Shown here: piece after piece, positions 1 through 41,684 of the stretch
Layout of the letters: each line of letters starts with the position of its first letter
Position numbering within the stretch: the stretch's first letter is position 1
Sequence record: OR062524
Source of the DNA: Escherichia phage vB_EcoM_3A1_SA_NWU
DNA: 64,000 nt
Reading direction: 5' to 3' (one strand)
Notes under the pieces: model-generated
The model's input: only the letters and a program-made list of their open reading frames with translations
Database searches by the model: none
What the model was told of the DNA's origin: nothing
Position numbers and translations under genes: made by a program

Positions 1-397
1 TGCATTTGTATTCGAAGATAGCATCCATACTCAACACTATAAAACCATGTGCCAAACCAGGTGGAAGCCAGAACTGTGTATGGTGTCGTGCACGAAGAAC
101 AACACCGTCCCAAGCACCGTAAGTAGGACTATCTTTACGTAGGTCTACAGCGAAATCCAATACTTCCCCACTTACACAACGAACAAGCTTACCTTGCGGA
201 TTATTTGTTTGAAAGTGCATTCCTCGCAAAACACCGAAGTTTGATTTAGACATGTTATCTTGAACGAAAGTTTGTCTACCAATGATATCTTCGTATTTTT
301 GTTCATTATATGTTTCTAAAAAGAAACCACGGTCATCTTTATAAACGTCTGGTTTGATAATTACCGCACCTTCAATTTTTGTTTTTTCTACTTTCAT
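1..397 (-). CDS. rmlC: dTDP-4-dehydrorhamnose 3,5-epimerase (RmlC-like); C-terminus cut by window edge
   Basis: Own reverse-strand translation from ATG at 397..395: [32 protein letters not shown]...GMHFQ...[33 protein letters not shown]...[10 protein letters not shown] (cupin RmlC signature). ATG overlaps rmlA stop (ATGA). Confidence 0.75.
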
Positions 398-1272
398 TTT
401 CCCTCCGCTAATTTGAGTAGGTATTGCCCGTACTCTGTTTTCTTCAGTGAGTTTCCATGGTAGACCAAAGTCTCTAAAGAAATCCACCCTTTTTTGAAAG
501 CAATTTCTTCCAGGCACGCAATCTTCAATCCTTGACAGTTCTCAATAGTCTGCACGAATTGACCAGCTTCCATCAGACTGGCGTGTGTTCCTGTGTCAAG
601 CCAAGTAAATCCTCGTCCGAGAACTTCTACTTGTAACTTCCTGTCTTCGAGGTAGCTGCGATTGATATCGGTGATCTCCAGTTCTCCACGCGCGGAAGGG
701 GTTACTTCTAATGCACGTTGAATAACAGAGTTATCATAGAAATACAAACCTGTGACAGCATAATCTGATTTAGGATTTTCAGGTTTCTCTTCAATAGAAA
801 TAACTTGACGATTACTCCCAAATTCAACCACACCGAATCGTTCAGGATCTTTCACCAAACACCCGAAGATACAAGCTCCGCCCCAAACATCTACCATCTC
901 ACTAGCGTTAATCAGTAGTTTACCAAAGCTTTGTCCGAAGAATAGGTTGTCACCTAAAATAAGAGCAACAGAGTCTTCTCCGATAAAATCTTTACCGATG
1001 ATGAAAGCGTCCGCAAGACCTCGTGGCTCGGATTGGATTGCGTAAGTGAGTTTTATCCCAAACATAGACCCATCTCCAAGAAGATGCTCAAAGTCTTCCT
1101 GATCGCCTGGTGTGGTGATGATTAAGATATCCTTAATGTCAGCCAACATCAATACCGATAAGGGGTAGTAGATCATGGGTTTGTCATACACAGGGAGCAA
1201 TTGCTTGCTCACACTGCGTGTTACCGGATGAAGGCGGGTTCCACTTCCTCCCGCCAAAATAATACCTTTCAT
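394..1272 (-). CDS. rmlA: glucose-1-phosphate thymidylyltransferase (RmlA)
   Basis: 292 aa; N-terminal [18 protein letters not shown]...[18 protein letters not shown] is the classic RmlA nucleotidyltransferase signature. Confidence 0.9.
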
Positions 1273-23160: not shown

Positions 23161-23235
23161 GGCCCTGTAGCTCAATGGGAGAGCTGTCGGCTCATAACCG
23201 ATAGGTAGCTGGATCGAAACCAGCCAGGGCCACCA
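23161..23235 (+). tRNA. tRNA-Met (anticodon CAU), CCA encoded
   Basis: Manual fold: acceptor GGCCCTG/CAGGGCC, anticodon loop CTCATAA, T-arm GCTGG-ATCGAAA-CCAGC. Confidence 0.8.
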
Positions 23236-23237
23236 AA

Positions 23238-23312
23238 GTCTTTATGGTGTAATGGATAGCACAGGAGTCTTCTAAACTCTTAGTCAAGGTTCGATTCCTT
23301 GTAAAGACACCA
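23238..23312 (+). tRNA. tRNA-Arg (anticodon UCU), CCA encoded
   Basis: Manual fold: acceptor GTCTTTA/TAAAGAC, anticodon loop CTTCTAA, T-loop TTCGATT. Confidence 0.75.
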
Positions 23313-23508
23313 GAACATTTTAACATGAATTAGCTCAAGTGATTTGAACCCACTACTGATCATGGTGGCAGAGAATGAGGCAAGTATGTCAGACATTATA
23401 AACAAAGGCCACGGTTATATTAGAAGACATAAATGCTCGAAGAGCACCGTTCGTGGAGAACGGGGGTTGGTGGAGTCACCATTCATGGTAAAATGTTTTA
23501 AAAAACTA

Positions 23509-23538
23509 TTGACAACAAACATTATTTTATGTTAGATT
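23509..23538 (+). promoter_or_regulatory. possible internal promoter TTGACA-N18-TAGATT before tRNA-Ser
   Basis: ttgacaacaaacattattttatgttagatt, about 10 nt before tRNA start. Confidence 0.35.
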
Positions 23539-23546
23539 ATAAGTAT

Positions 23547-23637
23547 GGAAGGGCAAATCGATGTGGCGACGAAAACGGTCTTGAAAACCGCCGAGCTTGA
23601 AAGAGCCTTGGGAGTTCGACTCTCCCTCCTTCCGCCA
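23547..23637 (+). tRNA. tRNA-Ser (anticodon UGA), long variable arm, CCA encoded
   Basis: Manual fold: acceptor GGAAGGG/TCCTTCC, anticodon loop CTTGAAA, T-arm GGGAG-TTCGACT-CTCCC. Confidence 0.75.
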
Positions 23638-23642
23638 GATTA

Positions 23643-23728
23643 GGTAGATTGGTGAAATGGTAGCCACGACAGTTTGCTAAACTGTAGTCGGAAACGGCGT
23701 GTAGGTTCGAGTCCTACATCTACCGCCA
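23643..23728 (+). tRNA. tRNA-Ser (anticodon GCU), long variable arm, CCA encoded
   Basis: Manual fold: acceptor GGTAGAT/ATCTACC, anticodon loop TTGCTAA, variable-arm hairpin with GAAA loop. Confidence 0.75.
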
Positions 23729-23858
23729 AGTTCTTTTTAATGTAGCTTACTTTAGCAGAGTAAATCTTCGGCAAGTGGCGGTAACCACTTTACCGATACC
23801 TCATAGTTAGTGGTGTGAACACTGGCTATTTTAAAAAGAATTTAAATATTAGTATTTA

Positions 23859-23946
23859 GGTGAGTTAATTCCGTAGGGGTAGCGGGGCAGACTGTAAATC
23901 TGTTATCATTGCGATTCGGGTGGTTCGACTCCATCACTCACCACCA
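23859..23946 (+). tRNA. tRNA-Tyr (anticodon GUA), class II, atypical 5-nt connector before D-stem
   Basis: Acceptor GGTGAGT/ACTCACC 7/7, anticodon loop CTGTAAA, T-loop TTCGACT, CCA encoded. Confidence 0.6.
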
Positions 23947-23952
23947 AATTAA

Positions 23953-24038
23953 GATGAGTTGGCTGAATGGTTTAAGCGGCGGACTGTTAATCCGTGTTCG
24001 AAAGAACAATATAGGTTCGAATCCTATACTCATCGCCA
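23953..24038 (+). tRNA. class II tRNA (long variable arm) with anticodon GUU (nominally Asn); identity uncertain
   Basis: Acceptor GATGAGT/ACTCATC, 3-bp D-stem, anticodon loop CTGTTAA, variable hairpin GTTC-GAAA-GAAC, T-arm ATAGG-TTCGAAT-CCTAT, CCA encoded. Confidence 0.55.
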
Positions 24039-24045
24039 GAATTAT

Positions 24046-24122
24046 GGACTTGTAGAGTTAAGGTAAACCCCCAGTCGCCAATAGGCTTCTGGAATTGCAG
24101 GTATCGAATCCTGCCGAGTCCC
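24046..24122 (+). ncRNA. tRNA-like element with intact acceptor pairing but no canonical anticodon arm
   Basis: GGACTTG...CGAGTCC acceptor pairing and T-arm-like GCAGG-tatcgaat-CCTGC (8-nt loop); no 5-bp/7-nt anticodon hairpin found by hand. Confidence 0.3.
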
Positions 24123-24128
24123 AGCATT

Positions 24129-24203
24129 GCTCCTATAGTATAATGGCTATTACAACGGTTTTGTAATCCGTGGATCTCTGTTCGATTCAGTGTGGGAGCA
24201 CCA
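24129..24203 (+). tRNA. tRNA-Thr (anticodon UGU), CCA encoded
   Basis: Acceptor GCTCCTA/TGGGAGC, anticodon loop TTTGTAA, T-loop TTCGATT. Confidence 0.65.
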
Positions 24204-24519
24204 ACACAACATTAAGAGCACTGTGATTGATCGTCGTATCCTGTGCACAAGGTCTGCTCGAAAGACAGTGTTCTTAGTATTGTGTTGATCACAAAAAGAG
24301 TCACCCGAAACTTGACCGGAGTAGGGTTGGATGGGGCAAAATGAGAAGCGGCTCTCCCATCGACAGCAACGAAGAATAATATTTGACTTTGGTTTTGTAT
24401 TATTTTAAGTTAGCTTACCGAACGTAGGGCTAGTCACCCAACGGGATACTCGTCACTGTCCCAATCAATAAAAGTCTTGACAACAAATAGTAAAATGTAG
24501 TATAGTAAATATATATGGC
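24204..24519 (+). ncRNA. 315-nt non-coding spacer with long-range pairing; candidate stable RNA
   Basis: aagagcactgtg ... acagtgttctt pairing, repeated agtcaccc(g/a)aac motif; no ORF or tRNA fold. Confidence 0.25.
24477..24506 (+). promoter_or_regulatory. sigma70-like promoter TTGACA-N18-TATAGT before tRNA-Gly
   Basis: cttgacaacaaatagtaaaatgtagtatagt. Confidence 0.4.
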
Positions 24520-24593
24520 GTTCTTGGTGTAGCGGTAGCATTCCGTCCTTCCAAGTCGGCGGCACGAGTTCGATCCTCGTAGAACGCTCCAAA
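24520..24593 (+). tRNA. tRNA-Gly (anticodon UCC), CCA encoded
   Basis: Acceptor GCGTTCT/AGAACGC, anticodon loop CTTCCAA, T-arm ACGAG-TTCGATC-CTCGT, discriminator U. Confidence 0.75.
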
Positions 24594-24689
24594 TTATTTA
24601 ATAAAGGGTTGCCAGAAAACTTTCTCTTTTACTCATGGTTTTCTCCTTCTCTCACACTTCTTCTGGTTGCCCTTCATTAAATGATTTAT

Positions 24690-24765
24690 TGGTTTGTAGT
24701 GTAGTCCGGTAGCACACGACACTTTGACTGTCGTAGGTTTGGTTCAAATCCAGACAGACCAGCCA
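24690..24765 (+). tRNA. tRNA-Gln (anticodon UUG), U1-A72, CCA encoded
   Basis: Acceptor TGGTTTG/CAGACCA, anticodon stem CGACA/TGTCG with loop CTTTGAC. Confidence 0.75.
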
Positions 24766-24858
24766 TATAACAAAGGTGAGTCACTACCTTAAGTGTGAAG
24801 TTAAAAACGAGGAGCCGCCGAACACTTTCTTTTGCGGTGTACCTTTAGAATGTTATCA

Positions 24859-24935
24859 CGGGACGTAGCACAGCTTGGTAGTGCGCTCGCTTTGGGAGCG
24901 AGAGGTCGAGTGTTCGAATCACTCCGTCCCGACCA
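24859..24935 (+). tRNA. tRNA-Pro (anticodon UGG), CCA encoded
   Basis: Acceptor CGGGACG/CGTCCCG, anticodon stem CTCGC/GCGAG loop TTTGGGA. Confidence 0.8.
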
Positions 24936-24941
24936 ATTAAA

Positions 24942-25015
24942 TGTTTCGTAGTTCAATGGTAGAACCCACGACTGATAATCGTGAGACACAAGTTCGATTC
25001 TTGTCGAAACAACCA
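24942..25015 (+). tRNA. tRNA-Ile (anticodon GAU), CCA encoded
   Basis: Acceptor TGTTTCG/CGAAACA, anticodon stem CACGA/TCGTG loop CTGATAA. Confidence 0.75.
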
Positions 25016-25017
25016 GT

Positions 25018-25077
25018 TTCCCGTTAGACTTACAGGATAAGAGTTCCACAGCTTATTGTGATGCTGGTTCGAATCCA
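25018..25077 (+). ncRNA. tRNA-like element (good acceptor and T-arm, degenerate anticodon arm)
   Basis: TTCCCGT...ACGGGAT pairing, T-arm GCTGG-TTCGAAT-CCAGC, no canonical anticodon hairpin. Confidence 0.3.
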
Positions 25078-25094
25078 GCACGGGATACATAATA

Positions 25095-25173
25095 GCGGGA
25101 TAGAGGAGTCTGGTCGTCCTCGCCAGTTTCATATGCTGGAGATCATCGGTTCAAATCCGATTCCCGCCTCCAA
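25095..25173 (+). tRNA. tRNA with CAU anticodon (second Met-type or lysidine-Ile), A1/C72 mismatch, CCA encoded
   Basis: Acceptor AGCGGGA/TCCCGCC, anticodon stem CCAGT/GCTGG loop TTCATAT. Confidence 0.65.
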
Positions 25174-35487: not shown

Positions 35488-36118
35488 TATTTACCAACAA
35501 ATAGAAGCATACGAAAATGCCATCTACTTAAATATAGGTGGCTTCCTTCAAGAATTAGTGGGGTTGCCAGTCTATGTTATGGATAAGCCATTCATTAAAC
35601 CGGATACTCCTTACCTAGCACTACGTATTATCACTTCCAGCGATTCTGGAGGTTGGTCTTACCGAAGTTCTATTCAAAATGATATGTATTCCTACGAGAT
35701 GGATAATACCTACGAGATTGAACTTGTAGCCTATCGTGGAAGACCTACCACTTTGATGAGCTATGTTCTGGCTGCTCTCCGTGGTGCAGAGGAATTAAAA
35801 TACAAACATCTCTATTCTAAAGGTCTTGGTTTTTTAGGAGCCTCTAATATAGCTCAAGCCAATACAATTGTAGACGGAGATAAGACTGAATTAAGAGCGC
35901 GTATGGTTATGACGTTCAACACTCGTATGAGTATTGAAGATATTGCTACTACACCAATAGAAGCAATCAACATGCACATCCGTTCATTCAGAGATAGTTA
36001 CAATGATCCTATCCCTTTAGATTTAATTCTAAACAGGGTTTATGCAATTACTTTGGTTCCAGGCGAATACTCGTCAGTCAATCAAAATGGATCATTATTT
36101 AACAACCCTACCGAATAA
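35459..36118 (+). CDS. putative neck/tail terminator protein
   Basis: 219 aa; overlaps upstream gene by 29 nt. Confidence 0.4.
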   Translation: MEQKEETLANIYQQIEAYENAIYLNIGGFLQELVGLPVYVMDKPFIKPDTPYLALRIITSSDSGGWSYRSSIQNDMYSYEMDNTYEIELVAYRGRPTTLMSYVLAALRGAEELKYKHLYSKGLGFLGASNIAQANTIVDGDKTELRARMVMTFNTRMSIEDIATTPIEAINMHIRSFRDSYNDPIPLDLILNRVYAITLVPGEYSSVNQNGSLFNNPTE

Positions 36119-36152
36119 ACTCATTGGAATTAAGTTTCTAACAGGAGCATAA

Positions 36153-37526
36153 ATGGCAACTTTTCGTGAAAAGGTAGCAACCGTAACTTTACTGTATGGT
36201 GCTACATCAATTCGTGAAACCCAGTTCGATATTCCCCTGATCCTTACAGGTCAGAACGTAACTGGCGAAGCGATTCAATATTACTCTTCTTCCGATGCAC
36301 TTTTGGAAGCAGGTTATGGATTAAATGATCCAGCGTATATTATGGCAGTCAAACTGTTTAATGGTTTGTTCCCACCAGATCAAGTCATGGTTGGTAAGCG
36401 TGAAGTTACAAACTTTACTCTAACTCCAATCGTAGAAGATAGTGCAACTTACACAATTACCATCAAAAATGGTACCAAGAAAAAAGAATTTAAATTCATT
36501 GCTGATGACACTGCAACTGCACAAGAGATTGTAGTTGGTCTGACTGAAATGATCAATGCAGATCTTGTTTATGGCCCACTGTTTACAGTGGCTAACAACG
36601 GCGCTGCAATGACTTTCACTCCAGTAGAAGGTAAGTTTGGTTCTATTGACAGCACAGGTTTCACTCAAGAAACTGTCTATGCTAATGCTATTACGGAAGA
36701 TATTGCTGCTCTGCATGATATTGATAGTAGCTGGTTCTGGACCCTTTCAGATTCCCATGAAACAGAAGATGTTCTAGCTTTGGCTGCATGGGTAGAAGAG
36801 AATGATAAAGTTTACTTCTTCTCTAGCTCTGAACCTGGAATTAAAACGAAAGCAGAAGACAACGTTCTGGAACGACTGAATGACCTCGGTTATAATAACA
36901 CTTGCTTTGCTTTGTGGATGACAGATGCAGATTCTGTATTCCCAGAAGCAGCAGTTGTTGGTGCAATCTGTTCTCGTCAACCTGGTTTGACTACTCTTCA
37001 CGGTAAAACACTGGTAGGTGTAGAGATCGAGAAACTGGATCAGACTTCGGAAAACAATATTGTTCAACAGAACGGTAACATCTATCGTAAAGAGCATGGA
37101 ACTCTGTTCTATCGTGACGGATTGATGGTTAGCGGTTTCTTTGTTGACTATGTTGTTCATGCTTTGTGGTTTAAAGCTCGCACAGAAGAATCACTGTTTA
37201 CACTGTTTAAACAACAGTCTATGCTGGGTGGTGGTGTTCGTGCTACTTCAAACGGTCTGGCTTTGATTCGACAAGCTGTTCTGGCTAACCCGATCCAAGT
37301 AGGTATCCTCAACGGTTCCATCGCTAATGAAGTTGTTACTTCTGAAGAGACTGGTTTGCGTGTCGATCTGAAACCTATAGTTTATATTCCTTCTCGTGCT
37401 GATATGACCGATGCGCAAATCAATGCTCGTCTGGTTGATGGGATGAAGATTGAATATGTTTACGCTGGCTTCTTCCATTACGTTAAAGTTCAGGTCAACG
37501 TCCTGACTAACCGTACTGCAAACTAA
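36153..37526 (+). CDS. tail sheath protein (putative)
   Basis: 457 aa; position before tube gene; followed by hairpin. Confidence 0.55.
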   Translation: MATFREKVATVTLLYGATSIRETQFDIPLILTGQNVTGEAIQYYSSSDALLEAGYGLNDPAYIMAVKLFNGLFPPDQVMVGKREVTNFTLTPIVEDSATYTITIKNGTKKKEFKFIADDTATAQEIVVGLTEMINADLVYGPLFTVANNGAAMTFTPVEGKFGSIDSTGFTQETVYANAITEDIAALHDIDSSWFWTLSDSHETEDVLALAAWVEENDKVYFFSSSEPGIKTKAEDNVLERLNDLGYNNTCFALWMTDADSVFPEAAVVGAICSRQPGLTTLHGKTLVGVEIEKLDQTSENNIVQQNGNIYRKEHGTLFYRDGLMVSGFFVDYVVHALWFKARTEESLFTLFKQQSMLGGGVRATSNGLALIRQAVLANPIQVGILNGSIANEVVTSEETGLRVDLKPIVYIPSRADMTDAQINARLVDGMKIEYVYAGFFHYVKVQVNVLTNRTAN

Positions 37527-37531
37527 TACGG

Positions 37532-37555
37532 CGGGGGGTTAAGCCCCCGTTATCA
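37532..37555 (+). terminator. GC hairpin (CGGGGG-loop-CCCCCG) with weak U tract after sheath gene
   Basis: cggggggttaagcccccgttatc. Confidence 0.4.
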
Positions 37556-37573
37556 AAATAAAGAGGATCTATA

Positions 37574-38053
37574 ATGGATAAAATGCTTACTGGCGTAATG
37601 GCCTACGACCCATCTCAAGTTATCCTTTCATTAGGTGGTTGGGAACCGTGGGGTTTTGCGGCTGATACTAAAATCGTTATTGCTAAATCTAACGATATTA
37701 TCAACCCTTACTCAGGGACTGATGGGGACGTTTCATTAGCTTTGAGTCGTAACCGTTTGGGAACACTCACAATGTCTTTGCAACGCACATCTCCAGCTAA
37801 CGAAGTACTTGCAACATATGCACAAACAATGTATTCTACTCGTCAAGTAGCATTCAGTGTTTACTTGGAAGACCCACGTGGCTATTACATTAGCACGATT
37901 GGATGGATTCAAAGTCAGCCTGAAGATACTATTGGCGAAATGATTACAGAGAACCAATGGGTTATTGGTCTTAAAGATGCAAGCCTTCTGCGTAATGAAG
38001 TTGGTGTAGGTTTGAGCACCCTTAACTCAATCTCTGCTCTGACAATTCAATAA
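37574..38053 (+). CDS. tail tube protein (putative)
   Basis: 159 aa; between sheath and chaperone; followed by terminator. Confidence 0.55.
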   Translation: MDKMLTGVMAYDPSQVILSLGGWEPWGFAADTKIVIAKSNDIINPYSGTDGDVSLALSRNRLGTLTMSLQRTSPANEVLATYAQTMYSTRQVAFSVYLEDPRGYYISTIGWIQSQPEDTIGEMITENQWVIGLKDASLLRNEVGVGLSTLNSISALTIQ

Positions 38054-38061
38054 TAAATAAA

Positions 38062-38082
38062 GGGCAGAAATGCCCTTTTTAT
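38062..38082 (+). terminator. intrinsic terminator after tube gene
   Basis: gggcagaaatgcccttttt. Confidence 0.65.
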
Positions 38083-38098
38083 CATTAGAGAGGAAAAT

Positions 38099-38581
38099 AT
38101 GTCACAAGAACAAGATAACACAATTCAAAAATATGCTCGACCAGAAGAAGTAGTTGAGATTCCGTTAGATGGAAACAGATCTGTTACTTTCCGTATTATG
38201 AAGTGGAGTCCATCTAAAGTGTTTGACAGGATTCCAGAATTAGGTAGTGTTCTGGTTGTTCCTATGACTATGTATAGCACAGCAACAATGTCCGCAGACG
38301 AAGACCTTGAGTCACGTATTGCTATGGCACTGATCCAACTTTTTGCAGGTTTGGAAGAAAAGAATTTAACTGTCTTTTTGCGTAAAATTTTAGATGAGGT
38401 TTATACTCAAGACGGTTATAACGTTGCAGAAAATTTTGATGAATTATTTATGGCTCACCCAGAACTAGTGTTAGATCTTACGGCTAAAGTTCTGGAGGTA
38501 AACTACGGCCCTTTTTTCAAACGAGGTTTCGGAAAACTGTTCACACAGCTTCAGGCGATGACGAGTTTAGCAGCAAATTAA
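38099..38581 (+). CDS. tail assembly chaperone (short, in-frame product)
   Basis: 160 aa; between tube and tape measure; contains slippery heptamer near 3' end. Confidence 0.55.
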   Translation: MSQEQDNTIQKYARPEEVVEIPLDGNRSVTFRIMKWSPSKVFDRIPELGSVLVVPMTMYSTATMSADEDLESRIAMALIQLFAGLEEKNLTVFLRKILDEVYTQDGYNVAENFDELFMAHPELVLDLTAKVLEVNYGPFFKRGFGKLFTQLQAMTSLAAN

Positions 38582-38847
38582 CACCTGCGATTGAACATGC
38601 TATCGACACAGCAACGAAAACCCTTACTTTGAAGTGGTATGAGGTTATTCTTTGCAAAGTCGTTAAAGATACCTCGGAAACACTGAAAACATTGGATAAC
38701 TACGGTGTAGATTATCTTTTAAAACTATATGAGTATTTAACATACGAAGAGTATGTTGAAGCCATGTATGTTAAAGACACTTCAATAAAGAGAAAACATC
38801 AAAACCAGACAAATAAAATGTCAGATTTGTTTAAGAAACTTGTTTAA
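38099..38847 (+). CDS. tail assembly chaperone, predicted -1 frameshift fusion product
   Basis: Zero frame 38099..38517 joined to -1 frame 38518..38847; the track ORF 38629..38847 would otherwise need a TTG start with no RBS. Confidence 0.5.
38512..38518 (+). other. -1 programmed ribosomal frameshift slippery site T_TTT_TTC
   Basis: Heptamer in correct register with the zero frame; the -1 frame is open from 38518 to 38847. Confidence 0.55.
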
Positions 38848-38867
38848 TCCAACACGAGGAACATACT

Positions 38868-40856
38868 TTGTTAGAAATTAACGCCTCCAAAATTAGTAAC
38901 GTGGTTACGTTTAAGGTGGACAAGAACAGTCTCAAGGAAGCAAAAGATGCCGTGTTGAGTGTTCAGAAGTTTGCAAATAAAATGCAACCCACTATGAACA
39001 TGACCAAGTTTAGACAACAAATGAAAGAGATTGAGCGTGAACTTAAGAAAGCTCAAACTCAAAGTCAAAAACCTATGCGAGCACCTACTCCCGCTGGAGC
39101 GGGTGCTCCTGTAGGAGGATCTGGTAGACCTAGAACTCCTAAAACCCCGCAAGGAAGAGAAGAAGAAAAAGCTCGTAAAGCTGCTGAACGCGAAGCTAAA
39201 GCAGCAGCACGTAGGGAAGATTTAGGTAATCTTCGTTTGCAGAACTTTAACTACAGAGCAAGAGCATTTAGTAAAGCCAGTCCTGGCGCTATGCAAGAAG
39301 CTAGAGATGTTATGGGTAAAGCTGTAGAGCAATACAAAAAGGGTGAAATAACTCTTCAACGTATGAACCAAGCTCTTGCTCACCAGTTGGATGCTTTACG
39401 CAGATCGCATCGTGAAAAGAATGCTGAAATAGAAGACGAGGTTCGCGGTCGTCGCCGTATTCGTAGAGAGTTAGAAGCAGAAGCTAAAATGCGTATACGT
39501 ATGCGAAATCGTGAACTTAGAGATATAGAACGCAACCGTAAGCGTGAATTAGCTCAACAAAAACGTGATCGTGATCGTAGATATGGACAATTAAAAGAAG
39601 GTGCAGCAGGTCTTAATCCACGTATGATTGCATCCTCTTTGATAGGTGCTGGGCTGTTTGCAGGTGGTTCTGTAGTTGGTAACACGTTGATGAATACTAA
39701 CGAAAGAATTAAACTTGTAAGCCGTGGTGCTGAAAACGTTCAGACAAACGCCAACGCTATTTTGGCAATGACAGCTTGGGGTGAACAGAACGGTGTAGAC
39801 TCTGCAAATATTATTAAATCAATAGATAATATTAAAGACGTTCGTGAACGTCTTGGTAATACAGTTTTAGCTGCAAAGTGGAATGAGAAAGAAGGGAAGT
39901 GGAAAGGCGGTGATAATGGCATAACTGACATTATGAACTTGTTTGGATGGAATCCAGAACAGCTTAAACCTTTACAGAACGATCCTTTAGCTTTTATTCA
40001 GGCTACTGTTAATGAAGGTGAGCGTCGAGGTATGAACTCTGCTCAAATCGGGCGACTTCTTGAAAACCTTGGTGATGACCTTATGCACTACCAACGTATG
40101 TTTAGTAAAAACGGCGAAGGGTATAATGAAGTATTGAAAATGCTTCAAAGAACAGGTGCAACATTAACTCAAGAACAAATAGATGCTTCTAAAGAGTTTA
40201 CTCGTTTTGCTGCAACAGTTCAGCTTGTAGGTCAAGGTATGCAGAACCATTTCTTAGAAGGTTTTGTAAAAGCATTACCTAAAGATGATTCTTGGTTGGA
40301 TAACGTTAAAGTGCTAGATCAGTTCGCCAAAGATTTAGGTGAAGAACTCGGTAAGACAACAGTTCAATTAGGAGGTTTTGCTAAAGAATTGGGAGATGGT
40401 TTCGGATCTTTTACCAATTGGCTTAAAGAAACATTCCCAGATACATTCGGAGACAACACAGATCCTAATAAATCTATGGCACAAAAAGCATACGAGGCAA
40501 CGCAAAGTGGAGACAGCAATCCTGTAGCAGATTGGTTGTACAATTTAACAGGTATTGATACACAAGATATTGGTCGTATGTGGAGAGGAGAACAAACAAG
40601 GACACGTGCTTTTGGATTTGGTAATCCTCTTGAAGATTTACGTGAATCAGCCTATACACCTAACGTAAGTTTGGCTCGTAATCAACCTGTTGTTGAGAAT
40701 ACGGTAGCAATACCAAGTGATCTTATCAAAGTTACGATCAGCCCTTCTTCAGAGTTTGGAAATATTCTTGATGCAAGAATTCAAAATAGCGGAAATAGCA
40801 TTTTCCAACGTTTGTCTCTTTCAACTCTAAGTGGACAATCTAACACTGGTGGTTAA
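38868..40856 (+). CDS. tape measure protein (putative), TTG start
   Basis: 662 aa; N-terminal charged coiled coil, Gly-rich hydrophobic segment; position after chaperone. Confidence 0.55.
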   Translation: MLEINASKISNVVTFKVDKNSLKEAKDAVLSVQKFANKMQPTMNMTKFRQQMKEIERELKKAQTQSQKPMRAPTPAGAGAPVGGSGRPRTPKTPQGREEEKARKAAEREAKAAARREDLGNLRLQNFNYRARAFSKASPGAMQEARDVMGKAVEQYKKGEITLQRMNQALAHQLDALRRSHREKNAEIEDEVRGRRRIRRELEAEAKMRIRMRNRELRDIERNRKRELAQQKRDRDRRYGQLKEGAAGLNPRMIASSLIGAGLFAGGSVVGNTLMNTNERIKLVSRGAENVQTNANAILAMTAWGEQNGVDSANIIKSIDNIKDVRERLGNTVLAAKWNEKEGKWKGGDNGITDIMNLFGWNPEQLKPLQNDPLAFIQATVNEGERRGMNSAQIGRLLENLGDDLMHYQRMFSKNGEGYNEVLKMLQRTGATLTQEQIDASKEFTRFAATVQLVGQGMQNHFLEGFVKALPKDDSWLDNVKVLDQFAKDLGEELGKTTVQLGGFAKELGDGFGSFTNWLKETFPDTFGDNTDPNKSMAQKAYEATQSGDSNPVADWLYNLTGIDTQDIGRMWRGEQTRTRAFGFGNPLEDLRESAYTPNVSLARNQPVVENTVAIPSDLIKVTISPSSEFGNILDARIQNSGNSIFQRLSLSTLSGQSNTGG

Positions 40857-40863
40857 TAAAATA

Positions 40864-40886
40864 CCTCGCTTCGGCGGGGTTTTTTC
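40864..40886 (+). terminator. intrinsic terminator (UUCG-loop hairpin plus T6)
   Basis: cctcgcttcggcggggtttttt. Confidence 0.65.
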
Positions 40887-40893
40887 GTTTCCC

Positions 40894-40923
40894 TTGACAC
40901 GAAGTTTCTATATGTGTTACAAT
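40894..40923 (+). promoter_or_regulatory. sigma70-like promoter TTGACA-N18-TACAAT
   Basis: cttgacacgaagtttctatatgtgttacaat. Confidence 0.5.
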
Positions 40924-40982
40924 AATCAATATGGGAAGATCTTGCATCTTCCTTTTGGCATTATCATTACTACGAGGTTATC

Positions 40983-41684
40983 ATGGCAGCAATGACTCCA
41001 CAACAGTCGGTGAGAGCCGTCTATAAGGCAGAACAGGAAATCAACTCTACCGAGAATAAAAATACCTCGGCATCTACTGTAAAGGGTGATAATGGTTTCT
41101 GCATTTTAGCAAGTGTTTATAATAGTTCAAGTGATCAATACATTCAAAACTTTAAAGCAATTACTTTCGATTCGGTCCCTGAAGTAGGTGTAACTCGTGA
41201 GGCAGATGTTACAAGTTTTCCAGTAGAATCAGGATCGGATGTAAGTGACCACGTTCAAATAAAAAACAACAGATTTAAACTTTCAGGTATAATTACCGAA
41301 ACACCAATTCGGCTTATGCGAGATCAATTATACAGTGCAGGTGTAAATGGGGCAAGGATTTCTCAAGCAATAGAATATCTAGATCAAATATTTGAGTCAA
41401 GACAACCAATAGTTCTTTTGACAGAACATAGGACTTTTGAAAATGTTATTCTCAAAGGCTACTCTTATGATTATAAATCTGAATTTGCTATGCAATTTGA
41501 TTTAGAGTTCGAACAAATCCGTCTAGTCTCTAAAGCCACTACTAACGCTATTGCTGTAAAAACAGCACCAAATAAATCGACGGGTGGTGATGTGAAAGGT
41601 CAAGTTGCTTCGAATGGTCCTAAGTCAGATATTACAGTAAGAACTGCTGAAGCTACTAATACCCCAACAAACAACGGAGGTTAA
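40983..41684 (+). CDS. baseplate/tail protein (putative)
   Basis: 233 aa. Confidence 0.4.
   Translation: MAAMTPQQSVRAVYKAEQEINSTENKNTSASTVKGDNGFCILASVYNSSSDQYIQNFKAITFDSVPEVGVTREADVTSFPVESGSDVSDHVQIKNNRFKLSGIITETPIRLMRDQLYSAGVNGARISQAIEYLDQIFESRQPIVLLTEHRTFENVILKGYSYDYKSEFAMQFDLEFEQIRLVSKATTNAIAVKTAPNKSTGGDVKGQVASNGPKSDITVRTAEATNTPTNNGG

What the first reader, a model, noticed from the sequence alone, without database searches (positions are those of the whole stretch)
38099..38847. Tail chaperone with a -1 frameshift site T_TTT_TTC in exact register
The heptamer at 38512..38518 is aligned with the zero frame of the chaperone gene, and the -1 frame is open from there to 38847. The downstream track ORF would otherwise need a TTG start with no RBS. 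This matches the conserved chaperone frameshift between tube and tape-measure genes.
Basis: partly seen in the sequence, partly recalled or inferred. Interest (0 to 1): 0.45.

Follow-up and report, generated by a model that had tools for sequence, protein, structure and literature searches.

The report
Tail chaperone -1 frameshift, unannotated
This is the well-known programmed -1 ribosomal frameshift that lets a tailed phage make a short and a long tail-assembly chaperone from one gene, found here in a phAPEC8-like E. coli phage whose sampled public records annotate it as two separate genes; it is ordinary biology and mainly an annotation correction.

Summary
TTTTTTC at 38512-38518 sits in the T_TTT_TTC register of the ORF 38099-38581. 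The -1 frame is open from 38488 to the stop at 38847.

The window is a Phapecoctavirus (99.3% identical to phage ESCO13). The gene order is sheath, tube, chaperone (Pfam Phage_TAC_15, 84 bits), -1 ORF, tape measure.

- **Conservation:** all 13 sampled GenBank relatives from Stephanstirmvirinae and Vequintavirinae (protein identity down to about 29%) and all 44 IMG/VR loci keep the same heptamer in register. Each has a -1 ORF of about 100-127 codons ending just before the tape-measure gene.
- **Synonymous sites:** the slip-site codons are frozen (27/27 TTT, 27/27 TTC). Other conserved Phe codons vary.
- **Selection in the -1 frame:** an R-F-R motif 3-6 codons after the slip is kept by synonymous codon swaps while the overlapping zero-frame residues vary.
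- **No own start:** the stretch between the chaperone stop and the first start codon is under purifying selection in the -1 frame. No start codon or Shine-Dalgarno (SD) sequence is conserved.
- **No stimulator found:** no conserved downstream RNA structure exists. An upstream GGAGG is only partly conserved.

Verdict: a -1 frameshift giving an 18 kDa G-like and a 29 kDa GT-like chaperone. It is a new member of a known kind, unannotated in the sampled records, and of low interest.

The parts
37574..38053 (+). Tail tube (major tail) gene, upstream neighbour of the chaperone
   Evidence: phrog_280 virion structural protein E = 3.1e-35 and NCBIfam NF047581 at 83 bits. Annotated as tail tube, major tail protein or virion structural protein in relatives. 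Follows the sheath gene 36153-37526 (phrog_205, E = 2.9e-100).
38059..38085 (+). Terminator-like hairpin plus T-run between the tube and chaperone genes
   Evidence: 8-bp stem AAAGGGCAGAAATGCCCTTT followed by T-rich tail. Whether it lowers chaperone expression relative to tube is inferred, not tested.
38099..38581 (+). Zero-frame chaperone ORF (G-like, TAC-N), 160 aa, 18.2 kDa
   Evidence: Pfam PF21822 Phage_TAC_15 E = 1.3e-23; the profile match ends at residue 143, right at the slip site. phrog_3840 tail assembly chaperone E = 2.8e-55.
38494..38498 (+). Internal Shine-Dalgarno-like GGAGG, 13 nt before T_TTT_TTC and 10 nt before C_CCT_TTT; possible upstream stimulator
   Evidence: Read from the sequence. 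Only partly conserved: GGAGG in rV5 and 18-1-2, GAGGTG in Justusliebigvirus, absent in KB57, CB7 and CR9. Also confounded by the conserved residues L-E-V. Its function is inferred only.
38509..38518 (+). Slippery run C_CCT_TTT_TTC, made of two overlapping in-register heptamers (38509-38515 and 38512-38518)
   Evidence: TTTTTTC is in register in 13/13 sampled Stephanstirmvirinae and Vequintavirinae GenBank relatives and 44/44 IMG/VR loci. Slip-site codons are 27/27 TTT and 27/27 TTC, whereas other conserved Phe columns are mixed.
38518..38847 (+). -1 frame extension (T-like, C-terminal part of TAC-NC), 109 codons plus stop; base 38518 is read twice
   Evidence: phrog_16039 (unknown function) E = 9.5e-45. 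Conserved at protein level across relatives. pN/pS is 0.2-0.6 in the -1 frame, including upstream of the first start codon. AlphaFold2 predicts a disordered linker of about 11-20 residues, then an all-helical domain, at mean pLDDT 72.8.
38524..38532 (+). AGG TTT CGG = R-F-R in the -1 frame, 3-5 codons after the slip, overlapping zero-frame G-F
   Evidence: R-F is kept in 27/27 distinct relatives and the full R-F-R in 26/27 (Val replaces the second Arg in L038). Arg codons swap synonymously (AGG/CGG; CGG/CGC/AGG/CGA) while the overlapping zero-frame residues vary (D/R/S/G/T/I/K).
38099..38847 (+). Proposed fused CDS join(38099..38518,38518..38847): GT-like protein, 249 aa, 28.8 kDa
   Evidence: Assembled. 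Junction ...VLEVNYGPFF|QTRFRK...; not shown experimentally.
38868..40856 (+). Tape measure protein gene (TTG start preceded by SD-like GAGGA at 38855-38859)
   Evidence: phrog_16051 tail length tape measure protein, 1247 bits. Annotated as tape measure protein in relatives. Sequence read.

Best explanation
Genes 38099-38581 and 38518-38847 form one recoded gene pair of the lambda G/GT type in a phAPEC8-like myovirus.

**How the two proteins arise.** Most ribosomes translate the zero frame and stop at 38579-38581. This gives a 160-aa (18 kDa) tail assembly chaperone. A minority slip one base backwards on C_CCT_TTT_TTC. With tRNA-Phe in the P and A sites on UUU/UUC, both re-pair to UUU/UUU. With tRNA-Pro/tRNA-Phe on CCU/UUU, they re-pair to CCC/UUU. 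Either way translation continues in the -1 frame to 38847 and yields a 249-aa (29 kDa) protein with the junction ...NYGPFF-QTRFRK... This protein shares its first 140 residues with the short form and carries a helical C-terminal domain on a variable linker.

**What the proteins do (by analogy with lambda gpG/gpGT; inferred, not shown here).** The shared N-terminal chaperone domain coats the tape measure protein made from the next gene. The rare C-terminal domain recruits the tube protein. Tube and sheath then polymerise around the tape measure at the right length, and neither chaperone stays in the virion.

It appears to rely on the slippery run alone. The upstream GGAGG may help in this phage. 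No downstream RNA structure is predicted.
For: **Shown by the sequence**
- Heptamer register, open -1 frame and no usable start.
- Chaperone identity and tube-chaperone-tape-measure gene order.

**Comparative**
- TTTTTTC in register with a -1 ORF of 102-127 codons ending just before the tape-measure gene in 13/13 sampled GenBank relatives from two subfamilies, at 82-29% protein identity.
- The same (101-127 codons; the 101-codon case, L050, runs off its contig end) in 44/44 IMG/VR loci, 35 of them distinct.
- The most distant sampled relative, unclassified Vibrio phage S4-7, has a different in-register heptamer, A_AAT_TTT, at the equivalent place with a 110-codon -1 ORF.
- The three synonymous positions of the heptamer never vary, although synonymous sites elsewhere are near saturation: pS 0.7-0.9, and other Phe columns are 15:11 and 8:19 TTC:TTT.
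- The -1 frame opens only 3-23 codons (mostly 3-8) before the heptamer. The R-F-R motif 3-6 codons after it is under -1-frame protein selection. Together these confine the shift to about 10 codons around the heptamer.
- The 15 codons between the chaperone stop and the TTG have pN/pS 0.24-0.6 in 8 of 10 comparisons, like the rest of the T part.
- The first start codon in the -1 frame wanders from extension codon 29 to 84. In Hena1, KB57 and others it lies inside the conserved domain.
- Gene callers chose 7 different starts among close relatives.

**Literature**
- Lambda G/GT mechanism and its wide conservation: PMC5009743.
- UUY A-site codons and all-pyrimidine X/Z heptamers are frameshift-prone in E. 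coli even without stimulators: PMC4066793.
- The same kind of frameshift with a GTTTTT motif has been proposed for the related Vandenendeviridae and Andersonviridae: PMC12846349.
Against: - No protein, ribosome-profiling or reporter data exist for this phage or any relative that I could find.
- No conserved downstream stimulatory structure: the window fold has z = +1.27, RNAalifold gives 0 pairs, and there is no Rfam match. Efficiency may therefore be very low.
- No in-frame natural fusion of the chaperone and T domains turned up to act as a Rosetta stone. All T-domain homologues in two very large protein sets are 33-107 aa stand-alone ORFs.
- One of the two peptide patterns used to fetch the IMG/VR loci contained the FF encoded by the slip site. 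That set is therefore biased towards Phe-Phe, though not towards the codons used.
- Sequence alone cannot separate a ribosomal slip from the RNA polymerase adding one U in the T6 run. Both give the same protein.
Confidence: 0.87

Rival explanations
1. Transcriptional slippage. RNA polymerase occasionally adds one extra U while copying the T6 run (38512-38517). Ordinary in-frame translation of that minority mRNA then gives the same ...GPFFQTR... fusion protein.
For: A +1 U insertion gives exactly the same protein as the -1 ribosomal slip (read from the sequence). The absence of any RNA stimulator fits either mechanism. The review PMC5009743 treats both mechanisms as used in phages and bacteria.
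Against: The run is only 6 T in every relative and never lengthens to 7-9. From my own knowledge, documented bacterial slippage sites are runs of about 8-9 or more. T6/A6 runs are common in this window, with 20 T6, 28 A6 and 2 A7 on the + strand alone, so they cannot be strongly slippage-prone. The flanking bases that complete a ribosomal heptamer are invariant (the C that makes the UUC A-site codon, and a T-ending preceding codon). Vibrio phage S4-7 replaces the run with A_AAT_TTT, a ribosomal heptamer with no long homopolymer.
Confidence: 0.06
2. Two independent genes. The downstream ORF is translated on its own from TTG 38629, or from ATT 38590 as in the RefSeq ESCO13 record, giving a small 72-85 aa protein. 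On this reading the heptamer is a by-product of a conserved Phe-Phe.
For: This is how every sampled public record annotates it. The protein databases hold only stand-alone small ORFs.
Against: - No SD-like sequence precedes TTG 38629, whereas the next gene has GAGGA before its TTG.
- The start position is not conserved. In several relatives the first start lies at extension codon 59-84, inside the conserved domain.
- Purifying selection in the -1 frame extends upstream of any start and back to the R-F-R motif right after the heptamer.
- The synonymous positions of the Phe-Phe codons and of the codon before them are frozen, which protein conservation alone does not explain.
Confidence: 0.04
3. 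No functional recoding in this phage. The arrangement is an evolutionary relic, and the -1 ORF is not expressed at a useful level because no stimulator is present.
For: No downstream structure is predicted. There is no experimental evidence for the fusion protein.
Against: A relic would accumulate stops and lose the heptamer. Instead the -1 ORF is intact in every one of more than 50 loci, at synonymous divergence near saturation, with pN/pS well below 1. Lambda needs only a few percent of GT (PMC5009743). Heptamers of this class shift above background without stimulators (PMC4066793).
Confidence: 0.03

Closest known systems
Bacteriophage lambda gpG/gpGT -1 programmed frameshift and its counterparts in long-tailed phages (Levin 1993; Xu, Hendrix and Duda 2004, 2013, 2014; reviewed in PMC5009743)
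   Same: Two overlapping ORFs lie between the major tail gene and the tape-measure gene. [quoted passage not shown] The -1 ORF has no start signals of its own. The extension is about 100 codons. Lambda also has no strong stimulatory structure.
   Different: The heptamer differs (T_TTT_TTC with C_CCT_TTT, against G_GGA_AAG in lambda, from my own knowledge). The phage is a contractile-tailed virus of about 150 kb. There is no detectable sequence similarity to lambda G or T. The slip lies 21 codons before the zero-frame stop. The function of the two domains is inferred here, not shown.
Phage P2 E/E+E' (and Mu) tail chaperone frameshift in myoviruses
   Same: A contractile-tail phage with the chaperone pair between the tube and tape-measure genes, using a -1 shift (PMC5009743).
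   Different: The protein family is unrelated at sequence level. The heptamers were not compared here. Efficiency is reported as 2-3 fold higher than lambda for P2 and is unknown here.
Proposed TAC-N/TAC-NC -1 frameshift with a conserved GTTTTT motif in Vandenendeviridae (Pakpunavirus Adele) and Andersonviridae (PMC12846349)
   Same: These clades are evolutionarily related, with the same virion architecture. [quoted passage not shown] Vequintavirinae read TG_TTT_TTT_C, which contains GTTTTT.
   Different: That paper analysed Vandenendeviridae and Andersonviridae, not Stephanstirmvirinae or Vequintavirinae. In Stephanstirmvirinae the base before the run is C (CCCTTTTTTC), which creates a second overlapping heptamer. 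That proposal too is computational only.
T7 gene 10A/10B -1 frameshift (G_GUU_UUC)
   Same: The A-site UUC re-pairs to UUU with tRNA-Phe. It produces a minor C-terminally extended structural protein (mentioned in PMC8785237 and PMC12846349).
   Different: It is a capsid gene rather than a chaperone gene, and its P-site codon is not a perfect slip.
E. coli dnaX -1 frameshift (A_AAA_AAG with upstream SD and downstream hairpin)
   Same: An internal SD-like GGAGG lies 10-13 nt upstream of the slippery run in this window, a spacing similar to dnaX (spacing recalled from my own knowledge).
   Different: The SD-like sequence is not conserved in the family, and no downstream hairpin is predicted. The shifted product is longer here, not shorter.

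Membership tests
G/GT-type tail assembly chaperone -1 programmed ribosomal frameshift | Two overlapping ORFs located between the major tail (tube) gene and the tape measure gene | tested here: met
   Sheath 36153-37526, tube 37574-38053, ORF 38099-38581, -1 ORF to 38847, tape measure 38868-40856.
G/GT-type tail assembly chaperone -1 programmed ribosomal frameshift | [quoted passage not shown] | tested here: met
   T_TTT_TTC at 38512-38518 (A-site codon 140 of 160) and C_CCT_TTT at 38509-38515. The -1 frame is open over 38488-38847.
G/GT-type tail assembly chaperone -1 programmed ribosomal frameshift | Downstream ORF lacks its own conserved start codon and ribosome binding site | tested here: met
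   The first start, TTG 38629, has no SD. Across 27 relatives the first start wanders between extension codons 29 and 84, and a weak SD-like tetramer precedes the first start in only 3 of them. Gene callers chose 7 different starts among close relatives.
G/GT-type tail assembly chaperone -1 programmed ribosomal frameshift | Arrangement and slip site conserved among diverged relatives beyond what protein conservation requires | tested here: met
   13/13 sampled Stephanstirmvirinae and Vequintavirinae GenBank relatives and 44/44 IMG/VR loci. Heptamer synonymous sites are frozen. -1-frame selection starts 3-6 codons after the slip. pN/pS is below 1 upstream of any start.
G/GT-type tail assembly chaperone -1 programmed ribosomal frameshift | Two proteins with a common N-terminus made at a fixed low ratio of long to short | not testable with these tools
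   Needs a Western blot, mass spectrometry or a reporter assay. Predicted sizes are 18.2 and 28.8 kDa.
G/GT-type tail assembly chaperone -1 programmed ribosomal frameshift | Both products required for tail assembly, bind tape measure and tube proteins, and are absent from virions | not testable with these tools
   Inferred from lambda (PMC5009743). No genetics or proteomics for this gene was found in the papers searched.
Pfam PF21822 Phage_TAC_15 (tail assembly chaperone domain) | Score above the curated gathering threshold over most of the profile | tested here: met
   84.3 bits against a cut-off of 22. Residues 29-143 match profile positions 3-125 of 127. Also phrog_3840 'tail assembly chaperone', E = 2.8e-55.
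dnaX/IS-type stimulated -1 frameshift signal | Downstream hairpin or pseudoknot 5-9 nt after the heptamer, conserved with covariation | tested here: not met
   Window 38519-38600 folds at -11.2 kcal/mol, z = +1.27 against shuffles. RNAalifold on 12 relatives predicts 0 pairs. No Rfam match.
dnaX/IS-type stimulated -1 frameshift signal | Upstream Shine-Dalgarno-like element at about 10-14 nt | tested here: inconclusive
   GGAGG at 38494-38498 is present at a suitable distance in the window, rV5 and 18-1-2. It is weakened or absent in other relatives and is confounded by the conserved residues L-E-V.
Programmed transcriptional slippage | Long homopolymeric A/T run (about 8-9 or more, from my own knowledge) | tested here: not met
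   The run is T6 in all relatives. T6/A6 runs occur 48 times on the + strand of the window.

The most novel reading that the evidence does not exclude
The slip may not depend on the heptamer alone. The nucleotide block GGTTTCG, 7-10 nt downstream, is invariant or nearly so from Stephanstirmvirinae to Vequintavirinae. It encodes G-F in the zero frame and R-F-R in the -1 frame. It could be a new kind of stimulator that works without RNA secondary structure, either by contacting the ribosome's mRNA entry channel or rRNA, or through the nascent or incoming peptide. That would explain how a structure-less site reaches a useful efficiency.
Probability: 0.07. Interest if true: 0.5.

Novelty: new member of a known kind. 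Interest (0 to 1): 0.2.

Why it matters
The practical gain is better annotation.
- All 18 sampled GenBank/RefSeq records of phAPEC8-like, rV5-like and related phages list the chaperone and a small 'hypothetical protein' as separate genes, with inconsistent and sometimes non-canonical starts.
- tblastn found the chaperone in 358 phage records. Many of these phages are candidates for therapy and biocontrol.
- These should be annotated as one recoded gene, join(38099..38518,38518..38847) in this window.

It also extends the conserved tail-chaperone frameshift to two more subfamilies of large myoviruses. It links them to the poly-T slip site recently proposed for Vandenendeviridae and Andersonviridae. 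It offers a clean example of a stimulator-less U_UUU_UUC site for frameshift-prediction tools. It does not change what is known about phage assembly or recoding.

Tried and rejected
- **Downstream stimulatory structure.** A single-sequence fold gave z = +1.27, less stable than shuffles. RNAalifold on 12 relatives gave no pairs. An Rfam scan at E <= 1 returned only two chance sRNA hits. I rejected this idea. Small local hairpins such as CGAAA...UUUCG in Vequintavirinae start 0-1 nt after the heptamer and are not conserved in the window's clade, so they do not count as evidence.
- **Rosetta-stone fusion.** I searched the T part against 5.8 billion proteins and a T-domain profile against 1.84 billion representatives. 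All hits are 33-107 aa, and none carries the chaperone domain in frame. This is neutral, not supportive.
- **Solved structure.** The chaperone profile against PDB gave only a marginal, near full-length hit to 5ir0_A 'Uncharacterized protein ORF19' (E = 0.061). A paper search for '5IR0' returned only chemistry papers.
- **Structure of the T part.** AlphaFold2 gave a helical model of moderate confidence: pLDDT 72.8, with only one of five models above 60. I ran no fold search, because a long helical hairpin would give meaningless matches.
- **Other frameshift sites.** A window-wide scan found one other long -1 extension, at position 403 on the minus strand. It is an ordinary RBS plus ATGA gene overlap.
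- **Literature.** Searches for a described frameshift in phAPEC8, rV5, Phapecoctavirus, Stephanstirmvirinae, Vequintavirinae or phiTE found none. The only related proposal concerns the neighbouring families.
- **NCBIfam.** There is no model for either part.
Full report

Yes. Bases 38512-38518 read TTTTTTC. The ORF starts at ATG 38099 and ends with TAA at 38579-38581, giving 160 aa. Its codons across the site are CCT (38510-12), TTT (38513-15) and TTC (38516-18). The heptamer therefore sits in the X_XXY_YYZ register as T_TTT_TTC, with the A-site codon being codon 140.

A second in-register heptamer, C_CCT_TTT at 38509-38515, overlaps it. Slipping on either gives the same protein...NYGPFF-QTRFRK....

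The -1 frame opens at 38488, only 8 codons before the heptamer. It stays open for 109 codons from 38518 to the stop ending at 38847.

The first canonical start in that frame is TTG 38629, with no Shine-Dalgarno-like sequence in front of it. By contrast, the tape-measure gene's TTG at 38868 is preceded by GAGGA.

*Chance.* In a crude set of 67 ORFs (about 18,000 codons) from the window there are 66 in-register heptamers. The -1 run after an arbitrary codon has a median of 6 and a 95th percentile of 27 codons. Only this site is followed by a long extension past the zero-frame stop. The single other case, at 403 on the minus strand, is an RBS plus ATGA start/stop overlap with the next gene.

**2. 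What is it?**

The window is a Phapecoctavirus. Positions 36100-41000 are 99.3% identical to Escherichia phage ESCO13 and to many other phAPEC8-like phages.

The gene order is:
- sheath, 36153-37526 (phrog_205, E = 2.9e-100);
- tube, 37574-38053 (phrog_280; NCBIfam NF047581);
- the ORF in question;
- the -1 ORF;
- tape measure, 38868-40856 (phrog_16051).

The ORF is a tail assembly chaperone. It matches Pfam PF21822 Phage_TAC_15 at 84.3 bits against a cut-off of 22, and phrog_3840 at E = 2.8e-55. The Pfam match ends at residue 143, that is, at the slip site. The -1 part matches only PHROGs of unknown function.

None of the 18 public records I opened joins the two ORFs. They list a chaperone or hypothetical protein plus a separate small hypothetical protein, or nothing at all. 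RefSeq ESCO13 starts the small ORF at the equivalent of 38590, which is ATT. phAPEC8_ev052 starts it at the TTG.

**3. Comparative tests**

tblastn with the chaperone found 358 phage records. I opened 14 spread across the ranking, from 82% down to about 29% protein identity. They were Phapecoctavirus, Justusliebigvirus and other Stephanstirmvirinae; Vequintavirus, Seunavirus, Avunavirus, Henunavirus, Mydovirus and Certrevirus; and a Vibrio phage.

[quoted passage not shown] In each, the -1 ORF runs 102-127 codons and ends just before the tape-measure gene.
- The Vibrio phage instead has A_AAT_TTT in register with a 110-codon -1 ORF.

A scan of IMG/VR gave 44 loci, 35 of them distinct. All 44 carry TTTTTTC in register with a -1 ORF of 101-127 codons; the 101-codon case (L050) is cut by its contig end. 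One caveat applies: one of the two peptide patterns used for that scan contained the Phe-Phe. The set is therefore biased towards those residues, though not towards their codons.

*Codon-level evidence, from 27 distinct sequences.*
- The two slip-site Phe codons are TTT in 27/27 and TTC in 27/27, and the preceding codon always ends in T.
- Other conserved Phe columns in the same gene are mixed, 15:11 and 8:19 TTC:TTT.
- Synonymous divergence elsewhere is near saturation, with pS 0.7-0.9.

*Evidence that the -1 frame is translated from the slip site onward.*
- Three to six codons after the heptamer, the -1 frame encodes R-F-R. R-F is kept in 27/27 and the full motif in 26/27.
- It is maintained through synonymous swaps: AGG/CGG for the first Arg, and CGG/CGC/AGG/CGA for the second.
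- Meanwhile the overlapping zero-frame residue varies (D, R, S, G, T, I, K). In rV5 the zero-frame Phe even becomes Leu while the -1 Arg is kept.
- The -1 frame is open only 3-23 codons (mostly 3-8) upstream of the heptamer. The frame change must therefore occur within about ten codons that contain the slippery run.

*Evidence against independent initiation.*
- The 15 codons between the chaperone's stop and TTG 38629 show pN/pS of 0.24-0.6 in the -1 frame in 8 of 10 comparisons. This is the same as in the rest of the T part.
- The first available start codon in the -1 frame moves between extension codons 29 and 84. In Hena1 and KB57 it lies at codon 80-84, deep inside the conserved helical domain.
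- Gene callers picked 7 different starts among close homologues.

**4. Stimulators**

None is supported.
- Positions 38519-38600 fold no better than shuffles (z = +1.27).
- RNAalifold on 12 relatives predicts no pairs.
- Rfam has nothing relevant.

An SD-like GGAGG at 38494-38498 lies 13 nt before T_TTT_TTC and 10 nt before C_CCT_TTT. From my own knowledge, this spacing resembles the dnaX upstream stimulator. However, it is only partly conserved and overlaps the conserved residues L-E-V, so I treat it as a possible, untested enhancer.

Sharma et al. (PMC4066793) report that UUN A-site codons and heptamers with X and Z both pyrimidines are among the more frameshift-prone in E. coli. They also report that 61% of heptamers shift above background without any stimulator. 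This fits a low-level, stimulator-less event like lambda's.

**5. Mechanism and function**

*Shown:* the sequence signals and their evolutionary conservation.

*Inferred:* a few percent of ribosomes slip -1 on C_CCT_TTT_TTC and make a 249-aa, 28.8 kDa protein. It shares residues 1-140 with the 160-aa, 18.2 kDa chaperone.

AlphaFold2 on the T part, with 18 homologues, predicts a disordered start (residues 1-11, low confidence to about 20). Long helices follow at 13-51, 56-62 and 64-108, with mean pLDDT 72.8. This matches the pattern in the alignment: a variable linker followed by a conserved domain.

By analogy with lambda gpG/gpGT (PMC5009743), the shared domain would bind the tape measure protein. 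The rare C-terminal domain would recruit the tube protein, and neither would remain in the virion. None of this is tested here.

**6. Rivals**

- *Transcriptional slippage.* Adding one U in the T6 run would give the identical protein. It is disfavoured for four reasons. The run never exceeds six in any relative. T6/A6 runs are common in the window, 48 on the + strand. The bases that complete a ribosomal heptamer are frozen. The Vibrio relative uses a non-homopolymeric heptamer.
- *Independent initiation and non-functional relic.* Both are contradicted by the selection patterns described above.

**7. Comparison with what is known, and novelty**

This is the conserved tail-chaperone frameshift of long-tailed phages (Xu, Hendrix and Duda 2004, as cited in PMC5009743 and PMC8785237). 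The closest published statement is the 2025 analysis of Pseudomonas phage Adele (PMC12846349). It proposes a -1 frameshift at a conserved GTTTTT in the chaperone genes of Vandenendeviridae and Andersonviridae, and it shows these families are related to Vequintavirinae and Stephanstirmvirinae. It does not analyse the latter two for the frameshift.

I found no paper describing the frameshift in phAPEC8-like or rV5-like phages. The rV5 genome paper mentions neither 'frameshift' nor 'chaperone'.

The finding is therefore a new, unannotated member of a known kind. It has value for annotation but is not surprising to a specialist.

**8. Verdict**

Confidence that a -1 ribosomal frameshift yields a G/GT-like pair is about 0.87. 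Interest is low (0.2).

Noticed in passing
window 38059-38085 (+): A strong terminator-like hairpin (AAAGGGCAGAAATGCCCTTT followed by a T-rich tail) lies between the tube gene and the chaperone gene. It may lower chaperone and tape-measure expression relative to sheath and tube. The rV5 record annotates a promoter before its chaperone gene and a terminator after the -1 ORF.
   Followed up: partly
window 23161-25172 (+): A cluster of 10 tRNA genes (Met, Arg-TCT, Ser-GCT, Asn, Thr-TGT, Gly-TCC, Gln-TTG, Pro-TGG, Ile-GAT, Met). The phage supplies a tRNA-Pro(UGG) able to read the CCU of the C_CCT_TTT heptamer, but no tRNA-Phe.
   Followed up: no
window 394-403 (- strand): An in-register G_GGA_AAA heptamer lies one codon before the stop of the ORF 1272..394, followed by a long -1 ORF. 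It is the GGAGGG RBS plus ATGA start/stop overlap of the next gene (product starts [26 protein letters not shown]...), not a frameshift site.
   Followed up: yes
window 38590 and 38629; L001 3990-4247; alignment A3: Public annotation of the -1 ORF is inconsistent. RefSeq ESCO13 starts it at an ATT codon, phAPEC8_ev052 at TTG, and SKA64 and muut omit it. Gene callers used 7 different starts among close homologues.
   Followed up: yes
GenBank MG065650, MG065653, MG065658, MG065644, MG065677 and others: 23 records named 'Campylobacter phage' with host Campylobacter jejuni carry chaperone genes identical to those of E. coli phAPEC8-like or rV5-like phages (100% and 35% classes). This suggests mislabelled or contaminated deposits.
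   Followed up: no
L018 (PV659873.1 Escherichia phage WPEC1) 1080-1680: In this 161-kb record the sequence right after the chaperone gene is annotated with opposite-strand hypothetical genes instead of the -1 ORF and tape measure. This could be a rearrangement or a chimeric assembly.
   Followed up: no
window 38524-38532; relatives: The R-F-R motif at the start of the otherwise variable linker of the long chaperone form is conserved across two subfamilies (R-F in 27/27, full R-F-R in 26/27). Its role is unknown: it could be a protein contact or part of the frameshift signal.
   Followed up: partly
PDB 5ir0_A against alignment A1: There is a marginal but nearly full-length profile match (E = 0.061; profile 34-147 to chain 26-138) to a solved 'Uncharacterized protein ORF19' of 161 aa. 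It may be a structural homologue of this chaperone family.
   Followed up: no
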